Below are positions 10,195 to 60,408 of a stretch of 64,000 nucleotides of DNA, one piece after another. Numbering within the stretch: the stretch's first letter is position 1; every line of letters begins with the position of its first letter. A model generated the notes under the pieces. It saw only the letters and a list, made by a program, of their open reading frames with translations, made no database searches and was not told the origin of the DNA. Position numbers and translations under genes: made by a program. The stretch covers positions 480,001 to 544,000 of the forward strand of contig CM000435.1 of the NCBI GenBank assembly GCA_000165345.1, read 5' to 3'.

Positions 10195-10216
10195 GCATGC
10201 ACACACTTTTGGCGGC
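10195..10216. promoter_or_regulatory. GCATGCA palindrome-type motif (10195-10201) next to an E2F-like TTTTGGCGGC site (10207-10216), in a divergent promoter
   Basis: Lies between the start of gene 8171-9865 (-) and the start of gene 10455 (+). Motif classes known from apicomplexan upstream regions. Confidence 0.35.
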
Positions 10217-10454
10217 AACTCAGTTTTTAGATCAGCATTGGATGGCAAATGAACCAATATGTGGAGAACTTAGGTGCGGCTTAATATTTGTGTTTTTATT
10301 AAATTTTTACTCAAATGTTTAATATTTAGACACTTAGTTATCTATTTGAAAAAAATGCTGTCCTGATTTGTTAGAAGTTCTCTTAGTTATCTTCGTTGAA
10401 TAGTAAGCAAGTATAGATGGTGGATGGTAGGTTCAGTGAATATATTTCCTTAAG

Positions 10455-11024
10455 ATGCTAACCAAAAAATTAAACCGTAATTTCTTTATTCAATCAAAAT
10501 TTTCAAGAGGAATTGTATATTTTTGTGAAAGATTGGTGCCTTATTCGGTGCCAGAGTTGTATTCTACTGTTATAGATGTGGCAAAATATAGGCAGATATT
10601 TCCATGGATTTCAGAAACTGAGATAACTAAGATTTGGGGATCTATTCATAATAGAGATATTTTTTTTTCAAGACAAAAAATCAAATTTGGTATTTTTGGG
10701 GGATATTTATACTCCATTGTAGAAGGAAGGAAGCCAAATTCAATAATAGCTTACTGGCCACCAAAAGAAGTTTTGAAGATACCTATTACAATTGAGAAGT
10801 TTTCATCCTTTGTTAGATCTCATAGAACAAGTTGGGAATTTATTGGGAACTATAAATATGGCTTGACTAAGGTTTCGTGCAAACTAGAGTTTGAATTTGA
10901 TACGATTCTAATGGATAAAATAGCACAACGCTATATCAAAGATATGACAGAGACAACCATTAACACACTAATAAATCACATTAAAAAAAGTGAAAGTTTG
11001 AATACATATAGTCTGAATATTTAG
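10455..11024 (+). CDS. SRPBCC/START-fold protein resembling coenzyme Q-binding protein COQ10 (189 aa)
   Basis: The YSTVIDVAKYRQIFPWISETEI stretch matches the COQ10 family pattern (Y..V.DV..Y..F.PWC..S.V). The N-terminus is basic and presequence-like. Assignment by motif only. Confidence 0.5.
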   Translation: MLTKKLNRNFFIQSKFSRGIVYFCERLVPYSVPELYSTVIDVAKYRQIFPWISETEITKIWGSIHNRDIFFSRQKIKFGIFGGYLYSIVEGRKPNSIIAYWPPKEVLKIPITIEKFSSFVRSHRTSWEFIGNYKYGLTKVSCKLEFEFDTILMDKIAQRYIKDMTETTINTLINHIKKSESLNTYSLNI

Positions 11025-11211
11025 AAATAAGCATTAGGAACTATCAAAATAAAATACATTGTATGACTTCTTTATTTTTTTTAATAATTTGAACACGTAC
11101 AATCACGATGCACATGAATTGACTCCTATTCTCAATTATTATAGATAGCGAATAGACTATTTATTACGTAATATTTCTTATATTGATTTAATGTAAGTCC
11201 TATATTCCGTA

Positions 11212-57220: not shown

Positions 57221-57550
57221 TTTTCTAAATACGAAAATTCAATTGATTAATGAAACTACTCTTTAAATTCACAATTTGAGCTAAATTTAAATTCTATAAA
57301 TATAAAGTGTTCTTAATTGTTTTGTTATTTTAATCTGTAATTTTACGTAAAATACAGTGTTTAACAGTTATTGTGATGATTTCTAAAGATTATTTATACT
57401 ATTGCTTTGGAAGCTCTATTTTCAAAAATAACTATTTCTAATAAAAAAGACGCAGTTTGGCAATTGATAGATCTAAAGAAAATTTGGTATGTCTTGTTCT
57501 TAACTCTTTTAATTTAGTTATTTGAACTATTTTATTACTTGTATTTGTTG

Positions 57551-60292
57551 CTATTGTAAGTATTCATCAACCTTAAGGTAATCATTCATATTGTTACCAA
57601 ACTCTGAATTTGATCCAAAGTTAAATTTAGAGCTATCAATTATGGCCTCCCTAAAGTTTTTGTCTAGATGGGTCATAGCTGTTGTGTGAGGTCTTTTTAA
57701 CTTCTTAGTTTTGCTATCCTTTTTAGGATTATTTATTTCATCTTCAGAGATGAAATTTGGCGAGCCAAGTAAGATTTTTTTCTTGAATGCAGTTGGCGTT
57801 GTCTTTAAATCAGCTTCGACTTGGTCTTTTTTATCAATAGCATGCGCAATTCTCTTTATTTCAGCCTAAAATTAAAATGATAGAGTAAAAGATATTATTT
57901 TGAAATAGTGAACTAACCTCTCTAGCTAATTTATCTGTCTTTTTAATAAACTCAGGATACATAGACTTTTCATAATTTCTTAGCTTTTGAACTTCTTCAT
58001 CTGAAACTTCAATCTTACCAATCTTCTTATCTGGGGATTTTAATTTTAAATTTGGAACATCTGATGATCTATCTAATGGCAATAGTTGAAGTTTAAATTT
58101 ACGACGATTATGTTCATCATACTCCTCTCGAAGCATTTTCTCTCTTTGTTCCATTTCCCATTCCACTAATTCATCATCATTTGCAGATATAGGAGGAAGT
58201 TCTTTAATTAGTACATGCCTTCTTGCTAATCTAGAATCAAGAGGATCCTCAAAGCTACCTTTAATCCTTTCAGCTTCTATTAGTTCGTTTCTGATTGAAT
58301 TAAGAGTATACTCAAAATCACCCATATTAGGTAGTATTCCTGATGAAGATAAAATAATTAGCTCTTCTACCGGAACTCCTTTGATATCAGGAATATCTTC
58401 AAACTTTAATTGCGGAAACAATTGCCTAGAAAGATGAATATTGAAAAGTTGAGAGTCTCCCGGAAGTGGAGCATCTTCTTTTTTGAGCATTTCCTCAATG
58501 AACTCTAATCTTTGTTTTAGATCTAAATTCATATTTTCATTTTCATTACTATTAAGAGCTTCTTTTATTGCTTTTGGAGAAATGTATTTGTTTGGAGAGA
58601 AGGTGATCATTGGAAATTCGCTATCATATTCACTTGACCATTCAATAATTGCGTTTTTAAGATCCGAGAGAAACTTTTGTTTTGCTTTCCTGGATTTCCT
58701 TCTTAAAAAAATATTTTTAAAACCCTTAGAGATCGATCTGGTCAGTGAAAAAGGCCTATCTTTAACTGTGAGTAAATCTCTTCTTTCCGCGATTAAAACT
58801 TTAACATCTTTCTTTGGTCCCGGATTAATTGAAATTAGATCTTTTAACTAAAAAGTATTAGTCTTGAAAAATAATAAACTGATCATACTCACCTCAGGTT
58901 CCAATATATTTGAGCGATGTAGAGGTAAAATACTCCGAATATTTTTAGTATTTGAATCCAATTCAAAAAAGTGAGCTAAGTAATCAGGAGGATTCACTCT
59001 ATCGCGCTCATAATCAAAAATGGGAAAATCACCCCAGAAGTACTCCTCGACAATATCTCTGATTCCATCGGGAGTATACCCTAATGGCATATCTAATACT
59101 GCCATATCTTCATCATTTAATGGGTCATTAACTCCTTTTCTTACATTTCTAAATGGAGAGCCTGCTGTTTCGAACATATGTTGTGCTTCCTGAGAAGTTT
59201 CAATAACTAAAATCAAGAGTATAAATAAAATCTAATAATGTATAACCACTTACACTCTAACTCCTGATCATGCTTTAACTGCCTCGATTTCATTTCTGAC
59301 AAATCTATGTCACTCTGTTGATATCCTTTAAGTTCAGGATGACTACGAATTGCTATTTTCCTCGGTTTACCAATTTCATATGGATATTTCAATATCCTTT
59401 CTTCTCCAGGTTCAATCTAATATAAAATTTCTAGCTAGATTCTTAATTTTCAACAAAAACAAACTTACCTTTTTATATATTTGTGTGTCATCCCATACTT
59501 GAATCTGTTCTTCTTCTGGTTCTATTATTGAAAATTCTTGTTCCTCTATTCTTTCCTTAGTCTTTTCTTTCCTAAATGCATTTTCAATTGCAATTCTATT
59601 TTTTTCTCTTTCAACAAAATCTTCATTTTCGAGAATTTCCTGAATTGATGAAAGCGATTAATAATATATTGTAGATTTCCGTATACTTACAAGTCTTATA
59701 TCTAAAGGGCGTGACCCATCAGTAACTTGAACTCCTTGATCTTCACCTAGGCTCAATGTTGAAGACACAAGATTAAAAGATCTTTTATCTTGATTTGAAT
59801 TAATTGCTTTGGAAGCGTATTTTTTTTGATTAACATAATTTGATTTTTCTTCATTATTTGAAGGAAAGACTTTAAATTGTCTTTGTTGTAAATTTAAAGT
59901 TGGACTGACCATTTTCAAGGACCTATGCTGTTTTCCAGTTTGTTGATTGCTATTATCGCTTAGTGGCTTTGATGCATTATGTTTTTTAAAAATTGAAAAA
60001 AATCCTGATTTTCCTGTGGCAGGTTGATCAATCTTTGAAATAGTGTTCGATTGTTTTACGTAATCATTTATTTGCTCATCACCTTCAAAATCAATTTTGG
60101 ACTCAGGCCCTAATAAACTAAAACCAGCAAGGCTAGTTTTGAAATTCTCATTTTTTTTTTCGTTAGAATATTCACTTGTTTCATTACAAAATATCAATCC
60201 TGATTATTTAAAGTATATTATTGATATTAAATCAAACTACTTAACTCACCAAGAATGTAGAGTAAAACCAGCGGGGCAATTCTACAATTCAT
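57551..60292 (-). CDS. Seven-exon gene (exons 60292-60250, 60199-59691, 59639-59469, 59416-59254, 59206-58893, 58847-57909, 57865-57551) encoding an 817-aa charged protein with a hydrophobic N-terminus; family not recognised
   Basis: Six introns of 43-52 nt all have GT(A/G/T)AGT donors and YAG acceptors, and each restores the frame connecting the three TTG-initiated track ORFs. The N-terminus MNCRIAPLVLLYILGLIF is signal-peptide or signal-anchor like. Confidence 0.6.
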
Positions 60293-60400
60293 GTTTTTGA
60301 AGATACCAGACTATATAAACATTATTTTTAGGTTATCTTAGCTCTGCAATTTCACTCTCTAGCCTATACATGCATAAATCTAACAATCATTAGCCCGCCG

Positions 60401-60408
60401 TGGCGCCA
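60401..60408. promoter_or_regulatory. E2F-like TGGCGCCA (preceded by CCCGCCG) in the divergent promoter between the 7-exon gene and the coiled-coil gene
   Basis: GGCGCC core about 110 bp upstream of ATG 60292 and about 180 bp upstream of ATG 60588. Confidence 0.4.

What the first reader, a model, noticed from the sequence alone, without database searches (positions are those of the whole stretch)
10207..60408. Recurrent palindromic GGCGCC (E2F-like) motif confined to promoters
GGCGCC-core motifs occur at 23952, 25846, 28540, 31920, 42134, 42454, 55765 and 60401. E2F-classic variants lie at 10207 (TTTTGGCGGC) and 13416 (TTTCCCGCC), and GGCGG clusters at 17986, 20811-20830 and 33654-33690. At about 30% GC, a given GC-only hexamer is expected less than once in 64 kb. 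All copies are intergenic, 70-200 bp from start codons and often in divergent promoters. A TGGCGCCA-type E2F-like element has been reported as over-represented upstream of Cryptosporidium genes. Several flanked genes here are replication or S-phase genes (RUVBL1, the gene pair divergently flanking 55765, LSm6).
Basis: partly seen in the sequence, partly recalled or inferred. Interest (0 to 1): 0.6.

Follow-up and report, generated by a model that had tools for sequence, protein, structure and literature searches.

The report
Known Cryptosporidium E2F promoter motif
The recurring GGCGCC motif is real, sits only in gene promoters and is conserved across Cryptosporidium species, but it is the E2F-type promoter element already described as the commonest upstream motif in this parasite, so it is an ordinary, known feature.

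Summary
The window is Cryptosporidium parvum chromosome 7, 100% identical to GCA_035232765.1 CP141124.1. GGCGCC occurs 8 times against about 1.1 expected, and all 8 copies lie in the 16.6% of the sequence that is intergenic. The expectation within intergenic DNA is 0.21. It is the most enriched GC-only hexamer, and its extended consensus is TTGGCGCCAA, a palindromic E2F site. With the looser cores (GGCGG, GGCGC, TCCCGC), 18 of 22 promoter-bearing spacers carry a site and 0 of 11 convergent (3'/3') spacers do. All 8 sites keep their position relative to the start codon in C. sp. chipmunk genotype I, C. ubiquitum and C. felis or C. canis. Many also do in C. bovis or C. ryanae, and fewer in C. 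muris. Some switch from GGCGCC to GGCGGGAA, as expected for one degenerate E2F site. The motif was reported by Bankier 2003, Mullapudi 2007 and Oberstaller 2013 (the most abundant upstream motif), and by Xiao 2025 (it dominates ATAC-seq peaks). FEN1 lacks it. Binding by E2F/DP proteins remains inferred.

The parts
3471..3482 (.). TTTCCCGCCAAA, a textbook E2F site about 60-70 bp upstream of the GINS-Psf3 start codon (3542), in the divergent spacer shared with coatomer-gamma.
   Evidence: the Psf3 identification comes (PF22466 PSF3_N, PF05916 Sld5)
10207..10218 (.). TTTTGGCGGCAA, an E2F-like variant in the divergent spacer between the 564-aa gene and the COQ10-like gene, 242 bp from the + gene's ATG
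13416..13424 (.). TTTCCCGCC, an E2F-like variant upstream of the 579-aa gene (469 bp from its ATG). A second CCGCC lies at 13160.
17960..17992 (.). Cluster CCCGCCC / GCGCC / GGCGG in the divergent spacer between the 231-aa gene and the kinase gene
20813..20829 (.). Inverted pair CCGCCAtttgcTGGCGG, 173-185 bp upstream of the TORTIFOLIA1-like gene's ATG (21000)
23951..23960 (.). TTGGCGCCAG, 208 bp upstream of the 183-aa gene (- strand). Conserved in C. ubiquitum (GGCGCC), chipmunk genotype I (AGCGCC) and C. felis (TGGCGCG).
25845..25854 (.). TTGGCGCCAT, 92 bp upstream of the LSm/SmF gene. GGCGCC is kept in chipmunk genotype I, C. ubiquitum, C. felis and C. bovis.
28540..28549 (.). TTGGCGCCTA in the divergent spacer between VPS29 and the 1050-aa gene, 167 bp from the + gene's ATG. 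GGCGCC is kept in four other species. C. muris has TGGCGCtctaGCGCCA instead.
31920..31929 (.). TTGGCGCCAA, a perfect palindrome 143 bp upstream of the mitochondrial processing peptidase gene. It is conserved inside a block of about 50 bp. C. felis and C. bovis keep TTGGCGCT.
33668..33686 (.). Inverted pair GGCGG...CCGCC, 14 bp apart, 97-111 bp upstream of RUVBL1. The C. ubiquitum ortholog reads TTTTTGGCGGG ... CCGCCAAAA.
42134..42141 (.). GGCGCCAA, 76 bp upstream of the 2266-aa WD40 gene (- strand). At the same position (78-82 bp) C. felis has GGCGGGAAA and C. bovis has TTTGGCGGGA.
42445..42482 (.). Central cluster ATGGCGCAGTGGCGCCTT...ATGGCGTC in the WD40|RPL8 divergent spacer
42629..42634 (.). 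GGCGGG, 144 bp upstream of RPL8. A site is kept at 116-185 bp upstream in all six species compared.
44451..44458 (.). CCGCCAAA in the 136-bp divergent spacer between the 181-aa and 303-aa genes
53669..53676 (.). GCGCCAAT half-site, 165 bp upstream of the 786-aa gene (- strand)
55765..55772 (.). GGCGCCAA in the 247-bp divergent spacer between the ataxin-10-like gene and guanylate kinase (99 and 149 bp from the two ATGs). GGCGCC is kept in chipmunk genotype I, C. ubiquitum, C. canis and C. ryanae.
60395..60409 (.). Doublet CCCGCCGTGGCGCCAA in the 295-bp divergent spacer between the 814-aa gene and the PPP1R21-like gene. The doublet is kept in chipmunk genotype I, C. ubiquitum, C. canis and C. 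ryanae.

Best explanation
The sites are copies of the Cryptosporidium E2F-type promoter element, consensus TTGGCGCCAA with looser forms TTTSSCGC, GGCGGG and GGCGC. The palindromic GC core flanked by T on one side and A on the other is the shape bound by an E2F-DP winged-helix heterodimer, each subunit contacting one half of the core. C. parvum encodes two E2F and two DP proteins, which is unique among apicomplexans. The proposed mechanism is as follows. E2F/DP binds one site, or a doublet, about 70-210 bp upstream of the start codon, in the accessible core-promoter region. It then drives or licenses transcription in one direction in tandem spacers, and in both directions in short divergent spacers, where a symmetric site can serve two genes. 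In this genome the element behaves as a general promoter mark for most genes, not as an S-phase switch. What is shown here: the enrichment, the strict promoter confinement, the consensus, and purifying selection on position and core across the genus. What is inferred from the literature and from motif similarity: which protein binds, and what binding does to transcription.
For: Enrichment is strong: 8 copies against 1.12 expected in the whole window, and 8 against 0.21 expected within intergenic DNA. GGCGCC is the top hexamer of the 36 strand-collapsed GC-only hexamers. CpG density is the same in intergenic and genic DNA (16.6 against 15.1 per kb), whereas GGCGC/GCGCC splits 20 intergenic to 2 genic, so composition does not explain the pattern. 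In an intergenic-versus-coding k-mer screen, GCGCCA (14:0), GGCGCCA (12:0), GGCGCC (8:0) and CGCCAA (16:6) were the only GC-rich words among the most enriched; the rest were A/T-rich words. At the half-site flanks, T occupies position -1 in 12 of 16 half-sites (p=0.0015) and position -2 in 9 of 16, giving TTGGCGCCAA. Sites occur in 18 of 22 promoter-bearing spacers and in 0 of 11 convergent spacers. About 4.4 sites would be expected in the convergent spacers at the promoter-spacer density. Conservation is clear. In three-way alignments with C. sp. chipmunk genotype I and C. ubiquitum, 92% of motif columns are identical against 59% of the other intergenic columns. All 8 sites are positionally retained in those two species and in C. 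felis or C. canis. In the distant species 13 of 22 positional tests are hits against 4.9 expected. GGCGCC is replaced by GGCGGGAA at the same position in C. felis and C. bovis, as expected for one degenerate E2F site. As an out-of-sample check, in the 10 kb beyond the window in four other species every promoter spacer has a conserved core and no convergent spacer does. From the literature: E2F 5'-TGGCGCCA-3' is the most abundant over-represented upstream motif, found in 163 of 200 clusters (PMC3734150). [quoted passage not shown] The two E2F and two DP genes are listed in PMC12246861. Protein-binding microarrays of the ApiAP2 domains did not assign this motif to any AP2 protein (PMC4117751).
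Against: No experiment has shown Cryptosporidium E2F/DP bound to this motif (PMC12246861), and I could not retrieve or examine the E2F/DP proteins here. The motif is not associated with cell-cycle genes in this window, and FEN1 lacks it, unlike classical E2F regulons. No Rb-family partner is known in the organism (PMC3734150). [quoted passage not shown] The looser GGCGG cores are individually weak, with 15 copies inside coding ORFs.
Confidence: 0.8

Rival explanations
1. The motif is a real, selected promoter element, but it is bound by a factor other than E2F/DP, for example a zinc-finger, Myb or untested ApiAP2 protein. On this reading the resemblance to E2F sites is coincidental.
For: Direct binding has never been shown. 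The distribution over about 80% of promoters and the lack of any cell-cycle bias are atypical of E2F regulons. E2F transcript profiles do not track ribosomal-protein gene expression (PMC3734150).
Against: The extended consensus TTGGCGCCAA and the interchange with TTTCCCGCCAAA and GGCGGGAA at orthologous positions match the known degeneracy of E2F sites (TTTSSCGC) closely. Cryptosporidium is the only apicomplexan genus that keeps E2F/DP and also the only one with this motif over-represented (PMC3734150, PMC12246861). The AP2 microarrays did not recover the motif.
Confidence: 0.1
2. The element acts mainly as a structural feature of the core promoter, independent of any sequence-specific activator. 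For example it could exclude nucleosomes, set boundaries or position the transcription start.
For: The sites sit at a fairly constant 70-210 bp from start codons. They fall in ATAC-seq peaks. They are near-ubiquitous across promoters.
Against: A 6-10 bp GC island is too short to exclude nucleosomes on its own. Conservation is base-specific and palindromic rather than compositional: other GC-only hexamers are not enriched. The neighbouring A/T-rich sequence diverges freely.
Confidence: 0.07
3. The pattern is a chance or compositional artefact. GC-rich hexamers might simply be avoided in coding sequence because of AT-biased codon usage, leaving the few copies in spacers.
For: Gly-Ala (GGC GCC) codons are rare in an AT-rich genome, and genic GGCGCC is 0 against 0.89 expected, which is compatible with mild depletion.
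Against: Intergenic DNA is more AT-rich than coding DNA (29% against 35% GC), yet it holds 8 copies against 0.21 expected. No shuffle reaches 8. The sites are conserved in position across species whose surrounding spacer sequence has diverged.
Confidence: 0.01

Closest known systems
Cryptosporidium parvum E2F-like upstream motif family (Oberstaller et al. 2013, motifs 3 and 4: 5'-[C/G]GCGC[G/C]-3', 5'-GGCGGG-3', summarised as 5'-TGGCGCCA-3'). It was first noted as over-represented in chromosome 6 non-coding DNA by Bankier et al. 2003. A GGCG-core motif upstream of glycolysis genes was described by Mullapudi et al. 2007.
   Same: Same organism, same sequence (TGGCGCCA in 12 of 16 half-sites), same upstream location and same high prevalence. 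The sites in this window are simply instances of that family.
   Different: Nothing essential. This analysis adds site-by-site positional conservation out to C. felis, C. canis, C. bovis, C. ryanae and partly C. muris. It also adds the absence from convergent spacers, and a GGCGCC-to-GGCGGG switch at orthologous positions. Genus-wide sharing of over-represented upstream motifs was already stated by Liu et al. 2016 (PMC5146892).
Canonical animal and plant E2F-DP binding site (TTTSSCGC / TTTSGCGCSAAA; E2F4-DP2-DNA structure, Zheng et al. 1999; Arabidopsis TTTCCCGCC and TTTGGCGGG)
   Same: A symmetric CG-rich core flanked by T on the 5' side and A on the 3' side. Frequent doublets and inverted pairs. 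A promoter-proximal position. The site at 3471 (TTTCCCGCCAAA, upstream of GINS-Psf3) is a textbook example.
   Different: Here the site marks most promoters rather than a G1/S regulon. The T/A flanks are shorter (TT/AA). No Rb pocket protein is known in the organism (PMC3734150). Binding is untested.
Apicomplexan ApiAP2 motifs (AP2_1 TGCATGCA; G-box G.GGGG)
   Same: They are also short promoter-confined motifs in the same spacers. GCATG lies within 30 bp of 12 of 28 E2F-like sites. G-box runs occupy 3 of the 4 promoter spacers that lack an E2F core.
   Different: Different sequence and a different, experimentally assigned protein family (PBM data, PMC4117751). They are not enriched in sporozoite ATAC-seq peaks, according to bioRxiv 10.1101/2025.01.17.633476.

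Membership tests
E2F/DP binding site (cis element) | Core [C/G]GCGC[G/C] or SSCGC, with a T-rich 5' flank and an A-rich 3' flank (TTTSSCGC / TTTSGCGCSAAA) | tested here: met
   All 8 sites are GGCGCC. T is at position -1 in 12 of 16 half-sites and at -2 in 9 of 16, giving TTGGCGCCAA. The variants TTTCCCGCCAAA (3471), TTTTGGCGGC (10207) and TTTCCCGCC (13416) are also present.
E2F/DP binding site (cis element) | Located in promoter regions, upstream of transcription units | tested here: met
   8 of 8 GGCGCC sites are intergenic. 18 of 22 promoter-bearing spacers carry a core, against 0 of 11 convergent spacers. Core density is about 3.1 per kb in promoter spacers and about 0.3 per kb in genes.
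E2F/DP binding site (cis element) | Under purifying selection as a discrete element (phylogenetic footprint) | tested here: met
   92% of motif columns are identical in three-way alignments, against 59% of other spacer columns. Positional retention is seen in 5-8 further species.
E2F/DP binding site (cis element) | Cognate E2F and DP proteins are encoded in the genome | not tested
The literature lists two E2F genes (cgd1_1560, cgd6_1430) and two DP genes (cgd7_3650, cgd8_1850) (PMC12246861; bioRxiv 10.1101/2025.01.17.633476).
E2F/DP binding site (cis element) | Physical occupancy or binding by E2F-DP | not testable with these tools
   This needs ChIP, CUT&RUN, EMSA or DAP-seq. The 2025 review states that most such components lack experimental confirmation.
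Classical E2F cell-cycle (G1/S) regulon | The motif is preferentially associated with replication and S-phase genes | tested here: not met
   The sites flank genes of all functional classes. GINS-Psf3 has a site, but FEN1 has none. PMC3734150 reports the motif in 163 of 200 clusters, peaking at any time point.
Cryptosporidium E2F-like upstream motif family (Oberstaller 2013) | 5'-TGGCGCCA-3' / [C/G]GCGC[G/C] / GGCGGG over-represented upstream of C. parvum genes | tested here: met
   The window is C. parvum chromosome 7. The sequences and locations match.

The most novel reading that the evidence does not exclude
In Cryptosporidium the E2F site may have been repurposed. Rather than acting as a cell-cycle switch, it could be the default element that defines promoters and serves both directions. 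On this reading one symmetric site or doublet, held at a fixed distance from each start codon across the whole genus, opens chromatin for about 80% of genes. The minority of promoters without it would use G-box/ApiAP2 input or would be read through as downstream members of polycistrons. That would make E2F/DP a general transcription factor in this lineage. The idea is hinted at in the literature, but it has not been demonstrated.
Probability: 0.3. Interest if true: 0.5.

Novelty: already known. Interest (0 to 1): 0.15.

Why it matters
The finding is a correct rediscovery from raw sequence of the dominant cis-regulatory element of Cryptosporidium, a major cause of childhood diarrhoea whose gene regulation is poorly understood. 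The element matters because E2F/DP is retained in no other apicomplexan and may control most promoters. That has been published since 2003-2013 and was reinforced by ATAC-seq in 2025. The small additions here are site-level conservation across the genus, absence from convergent spacers, variant switching at orthologous positions, and G-box runs in three of the four E2F-less promoters. These give a concrete set of promoters for mutational or ChIP tests, but they do not change the picture.

Tried and rejected
1. A compositional explanation was rejected. CpG density is equal in intergenic and genic DNA, other GC-only hexamers are not enriched, and intergenic DNA is the more AT-rich compartment.

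2. The ninth SGCGCS hit (CGCGCG at 25502), invariant in all species, first looked like a super-conserved regulatory site. It is inside tRNA-Ser(GCT), 25448-25529.

3. The S-phase or replication association was rejected, as set out in the interpretation verdict.

4. I asked whether the conserved TTTTTTGATC next to the site at 28542 is a general partner motif. GATC-type words are not enriched in spacers, so this is a local feature only.

5. My first ORF-only gene map mis-typed several spacers, for example 20756-20999 as convergent and 55449-55915 as 467 bp long. I corrected it with gene calls from annotated assemblies.

Conservation of the variants at 3471, 10207, 13416, 17960 and 20813 is therefore untested.

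7. I did not try to retrieve the Cryptosporidium E2F/DP proteins with the last homology search. A search seeded with a metazoan E2F DNA-binding domain would have been swamped by metazoan hits.
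Full report
**Source of the window.** The window is Cryptosporidium parvum chromosome 7. Three fetched loci from GCA_035232765.1 record CP141124.1 are exact substrings of it, which places the window at about 520,881-584,880 of that 1.36-Mb record. Its proteins are named C. parvum in public sources, with locus tags of the form CPHLJ_7g.... Window GC is 33.5%.

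**The observation.** GGCGCC occurs exactly 8 times, at 23953, 25847, 28542, 31922, 42134, 42455, 55765 and 60402. The expectation from dinucleotide-preserving shuffles is 1.12, and 0 of 100 shuffles reach 8. TGGCGCC gives 12 strand-matches against 0.80 expected. The quoted variants at 10207, 13416, 17986, 20811-20830 and 33654-33690 are present as written.

**Gene map.** I built the gene map from Pfam scans and from gene calls in annotated assemblies. There are 34 genes, several with introns that an ORF scan misses: GINS-Psf3, the 231-aa gene, the TORTIFOLIA1-like gene, FEN1, p24, the ataxin-10-like gene and the 814-aa gene. Intergenic DNA is 10.6 kb, or 16.6% of the span.

**Enrichment within intergenic DNA.**
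- All 8 GGCGCC copies are intergenic. The first-order Markov expectation inside intergenic DNA is 0.21, Poisson p about 8e-11.
- GGCGCC ranks first of the 36 strand-collapsed GC-only hexamers.
- Tied for second are CCCGCC/GGCGGG (5 intergenic, 0 genic) and the C/G run that corresponds to the known G-box (5 intergenic).
- CpG density is the same in spacers and genes (16.6 against 15.1 per kb), while GGCGC/GCGCC splits 20 to 2.
- In an unbiased intergenic-versus-coding k-mer screen, GCGCCA (14:0), GGCGCCA (12:0), GGCGCC (8:0) and CGCCAA (16:6) were the only GC-rich words among the most enriched. The rest were A/T-rich words.

Composition and chance are therefore excluded. GGCGGG alone is not above chance in number (5 against 2.29). 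Only its exclusively intergenic placement is informative.

**Anatomy of the sites.**
- The half-site flanks give T at position -1 in 12 of 16 and at -2 in 9 of 16. The consensus is TTGGCGCCAA, a short-flanked version of the palindromic E2F consensus TTTSGCGCSAAA.
- Seven of the 8 sites lie 76-208 bp from the nearest start codon. Site 42455 is a central doublet, 318 and 397 bp from its two neighbouring genes.
- Six sites are in divergent spacers and two in tandem spacers.
- Counting the looser cores (GGCG[CG], TCCCGC), 18 of 22 promoter-bearing spacers carry at least one site. None of the 11 convergent spacers (1.44 kb) does, where about 4.4 sites would be expected at the promoter-spacer density.
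- Many sites are doublets or inverted pairs: 20813-20829, 33668-33686, 42445-42482 and 60395-60407.
- One extra SGCGCS hit, at 25502, lies inside tRNA-Ser(GCT) at 25448-25529 and is unrelated.

**Conservation.** Using the mitochondrial processing peptidase and the PPP1R21-like protein as anchors, I fetched syntenic loci. They come from C. sp. chipmunk genotype I, C. ubiquitum, C. felis, C. bovis and C. muris, and from chipmunk genotype I, C. ubiquitum, C. canis and C. ryanae. Gene order is identical throughout.
- All 8 sites are retained at the same distance from the anchoring start codon in chipmunk genotype I, C. ubiquitum and C. felis or C. canis.
- Most are retained, sometimes shifted by about 45-65 bp, in C. 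bovis or C. ryanae.
- C. muris keeps GCGCC half-sites in most of these spacers, though only one falls within 35 bp of the C. parvum position.
- At the site upstream of the WD40 gene, GGCGCC (C. parvum, chipmunk genotype I, C. ubiquitum) is replaced by GGCGGGAAA in C. felis and by TTTGGCGGGA in C. bovis. The distance stays at 74-82 bp. This is what one degenerate E2F site should show.
- In three-way alignments, 92% of motif columns are identical against 59% of the other spacer columns (alignments).
- Positional tests in the distant species give 13 of 22 hits against 4.9 expected.
- In the 10 kb beyond the window's right end, in four other species, every promoter spacer has a conserved core and no convergent spacer does.

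**Interpretation.** The element is the E2F-like motif already described for this parasite.
- Oberstaller et al. 2013 (PMC3734150) name 5'-TGGCGCCA-3', [C/G]GCGC[G/C] and GGCGGG as the most abundant over-represented upstream motifs. They found them in 163 of 200 clusters (2,379 genes), and credit the first sighting to Bankier et al. 2003.
- Mullapudi et al. 2007 (PMC1779779) found a GGCG-core motif upstream of glycolysis genes.
- Liu et al. 2016 (PMC5146892) state that all Cryptosporidium genomes share their over-represented upstream motifs.
- Xiao et al. 2025 (bioRxiv 10.1101/2025.01.17.633476) find the E2F motif to be the single most prominent motif in sporozoite ATAC-seq peaks. More than half of those peaks are bidirectional promoters.
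- The 2025 review (PMC12246861) lists two E2F and two DP genes. It stresses that almost none of these assignments has been tested experimentally.
- The AP2 protein-binding microarrays did not assign the motif to any ApiAP2 (PMC4117751).

The identity of the binding protein therefore remains an inference, though a strong one.

**The S-phase argument fails.** The genes flanking the 8 sites cover membrane, trafficking, ribosomal, mitochondrial, RNA-processing and nucleotide-kinase functions. FEN1, the clearest replication gene in the window, has no E2F core upstream. It has only TTTCCCAC, a one-base mismatch to the E2F half-site TTTCCCGC, plus a G-box. GINS-Psf3 does have a site. The published data likewise show the motif in clusters that peak at every time point. 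In this window the motif behaves as a general promoter mark.

**Side observations.**
- GCATG (AP2_1-like) lies within 30 bp of 12 of 28 E2F-like sites, against 3.2 expected under random placement inside the same spacers. This may only reflect both motifs sharing a narrow core-promoter zone.
- Three of the four promoter spacers without an E2F core carry G-box runs.
- The LSm|Aha1 and p24|FEN1 tandem spacers lack E2F cores and could be internal spacers of polycistrons.

**Verdict.** The core interpretation is correct but already published, and the S-phase claim is not supported. Novelty: already known. Interest is low.

Noticed in passing
window 25448-25529 (+): tRNA-Ser (anticodon GCT) lies in the 975-bp SIR2|LSm spacer. 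Its invariant CTGCACGCGCGTGTT segment appears in all six Cryptosporidium species and accounts for the only SGCGCS hit that is not GGCGCC.
   Followed up: yes
window 28578-28590: The block ATTTTTTGATCT, about 40 bp downstream of the E2F site at 28542, has ten consecutive columns (TTTTTTGATC) identical across six species, including C. muris, in an otherwise diverged spacer. GATC-type words are not generally enriched in spacers, so its role is unexplained. It could be a transcription start or a gene-specific element.
   Followed up: partly
window, 28 E2F-like sites (e.g. 3455-3482, 10190-10218, 13416-13446, 17950-17992, 20825-20842, 28542-28580): GCATG / TGCATGCA (the ApiAP2 'AP2_1' motif) lies within 30 bp of 12 of 28 E2F-like sites, against 3.2 expected under random placement in the same spacers. 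In the spacer upstream of the processing peptidase, CATG[TC]AAATC plus TTGGCGC is conserved as a module out to C. bovis.
   Followed up: partly
window 15388-15407, 47193-47205, 48076-48084: Three of the four promoter-bearing spacers without any E2F-like core carry G-box runs instead (CCCCCCC/GGGG, CCCTCCCCC, GAGGGGAGG). The three are NPL4|tubulin, FEN1|p24 and p24|Ost5. This suggests an alternative promoter class.
   Followed up: partly
window 26196-26442 and 47087-47258: The tandem spacers LSm->Aha1 and p24->FEN1 have no E2F-like core. They may be internal spacers of dicistronic transcripts of the kind reported for C. parvum in 2025. C. bovis has a GGCGGG in its LSm|Aha1 spacer.
   Followed up: no
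window 48646-49739: The Ost5|SF3a spacer is unusually long for this compact genome (1.1 kb). It has no ORF of 45 aa or more and no Rfam hit. It could hold an unannotated non-coding RNA or a long UTR.
   Followed up: partly
L011 (C. muris), whole 21.7-kb locus: C. muris has no GGCGCC anywhere in the syntenic locus, but it has 6 GGCGC/GCGCC half-sites in spacers against 1 in genes. One of these is an inverted pair, TGGCGCtctaGCGCCA. The gastric lineage may use a split or half-site version of the element.
   Followed up: partly
window 45531-47086 (-), 3542-4310 (+), 53759-55668 (-), 57551-60292 (-): Several genes here have introns that split or truncate the simple ORFs: FEN1, GINS-Psf3, the ataxin-10-like gene and the 814-aa gene. 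An ORF-only map therefore mis-sizes the neighbouring spacers and mis-states the distances from motif to start codon.
   Followed up: yes
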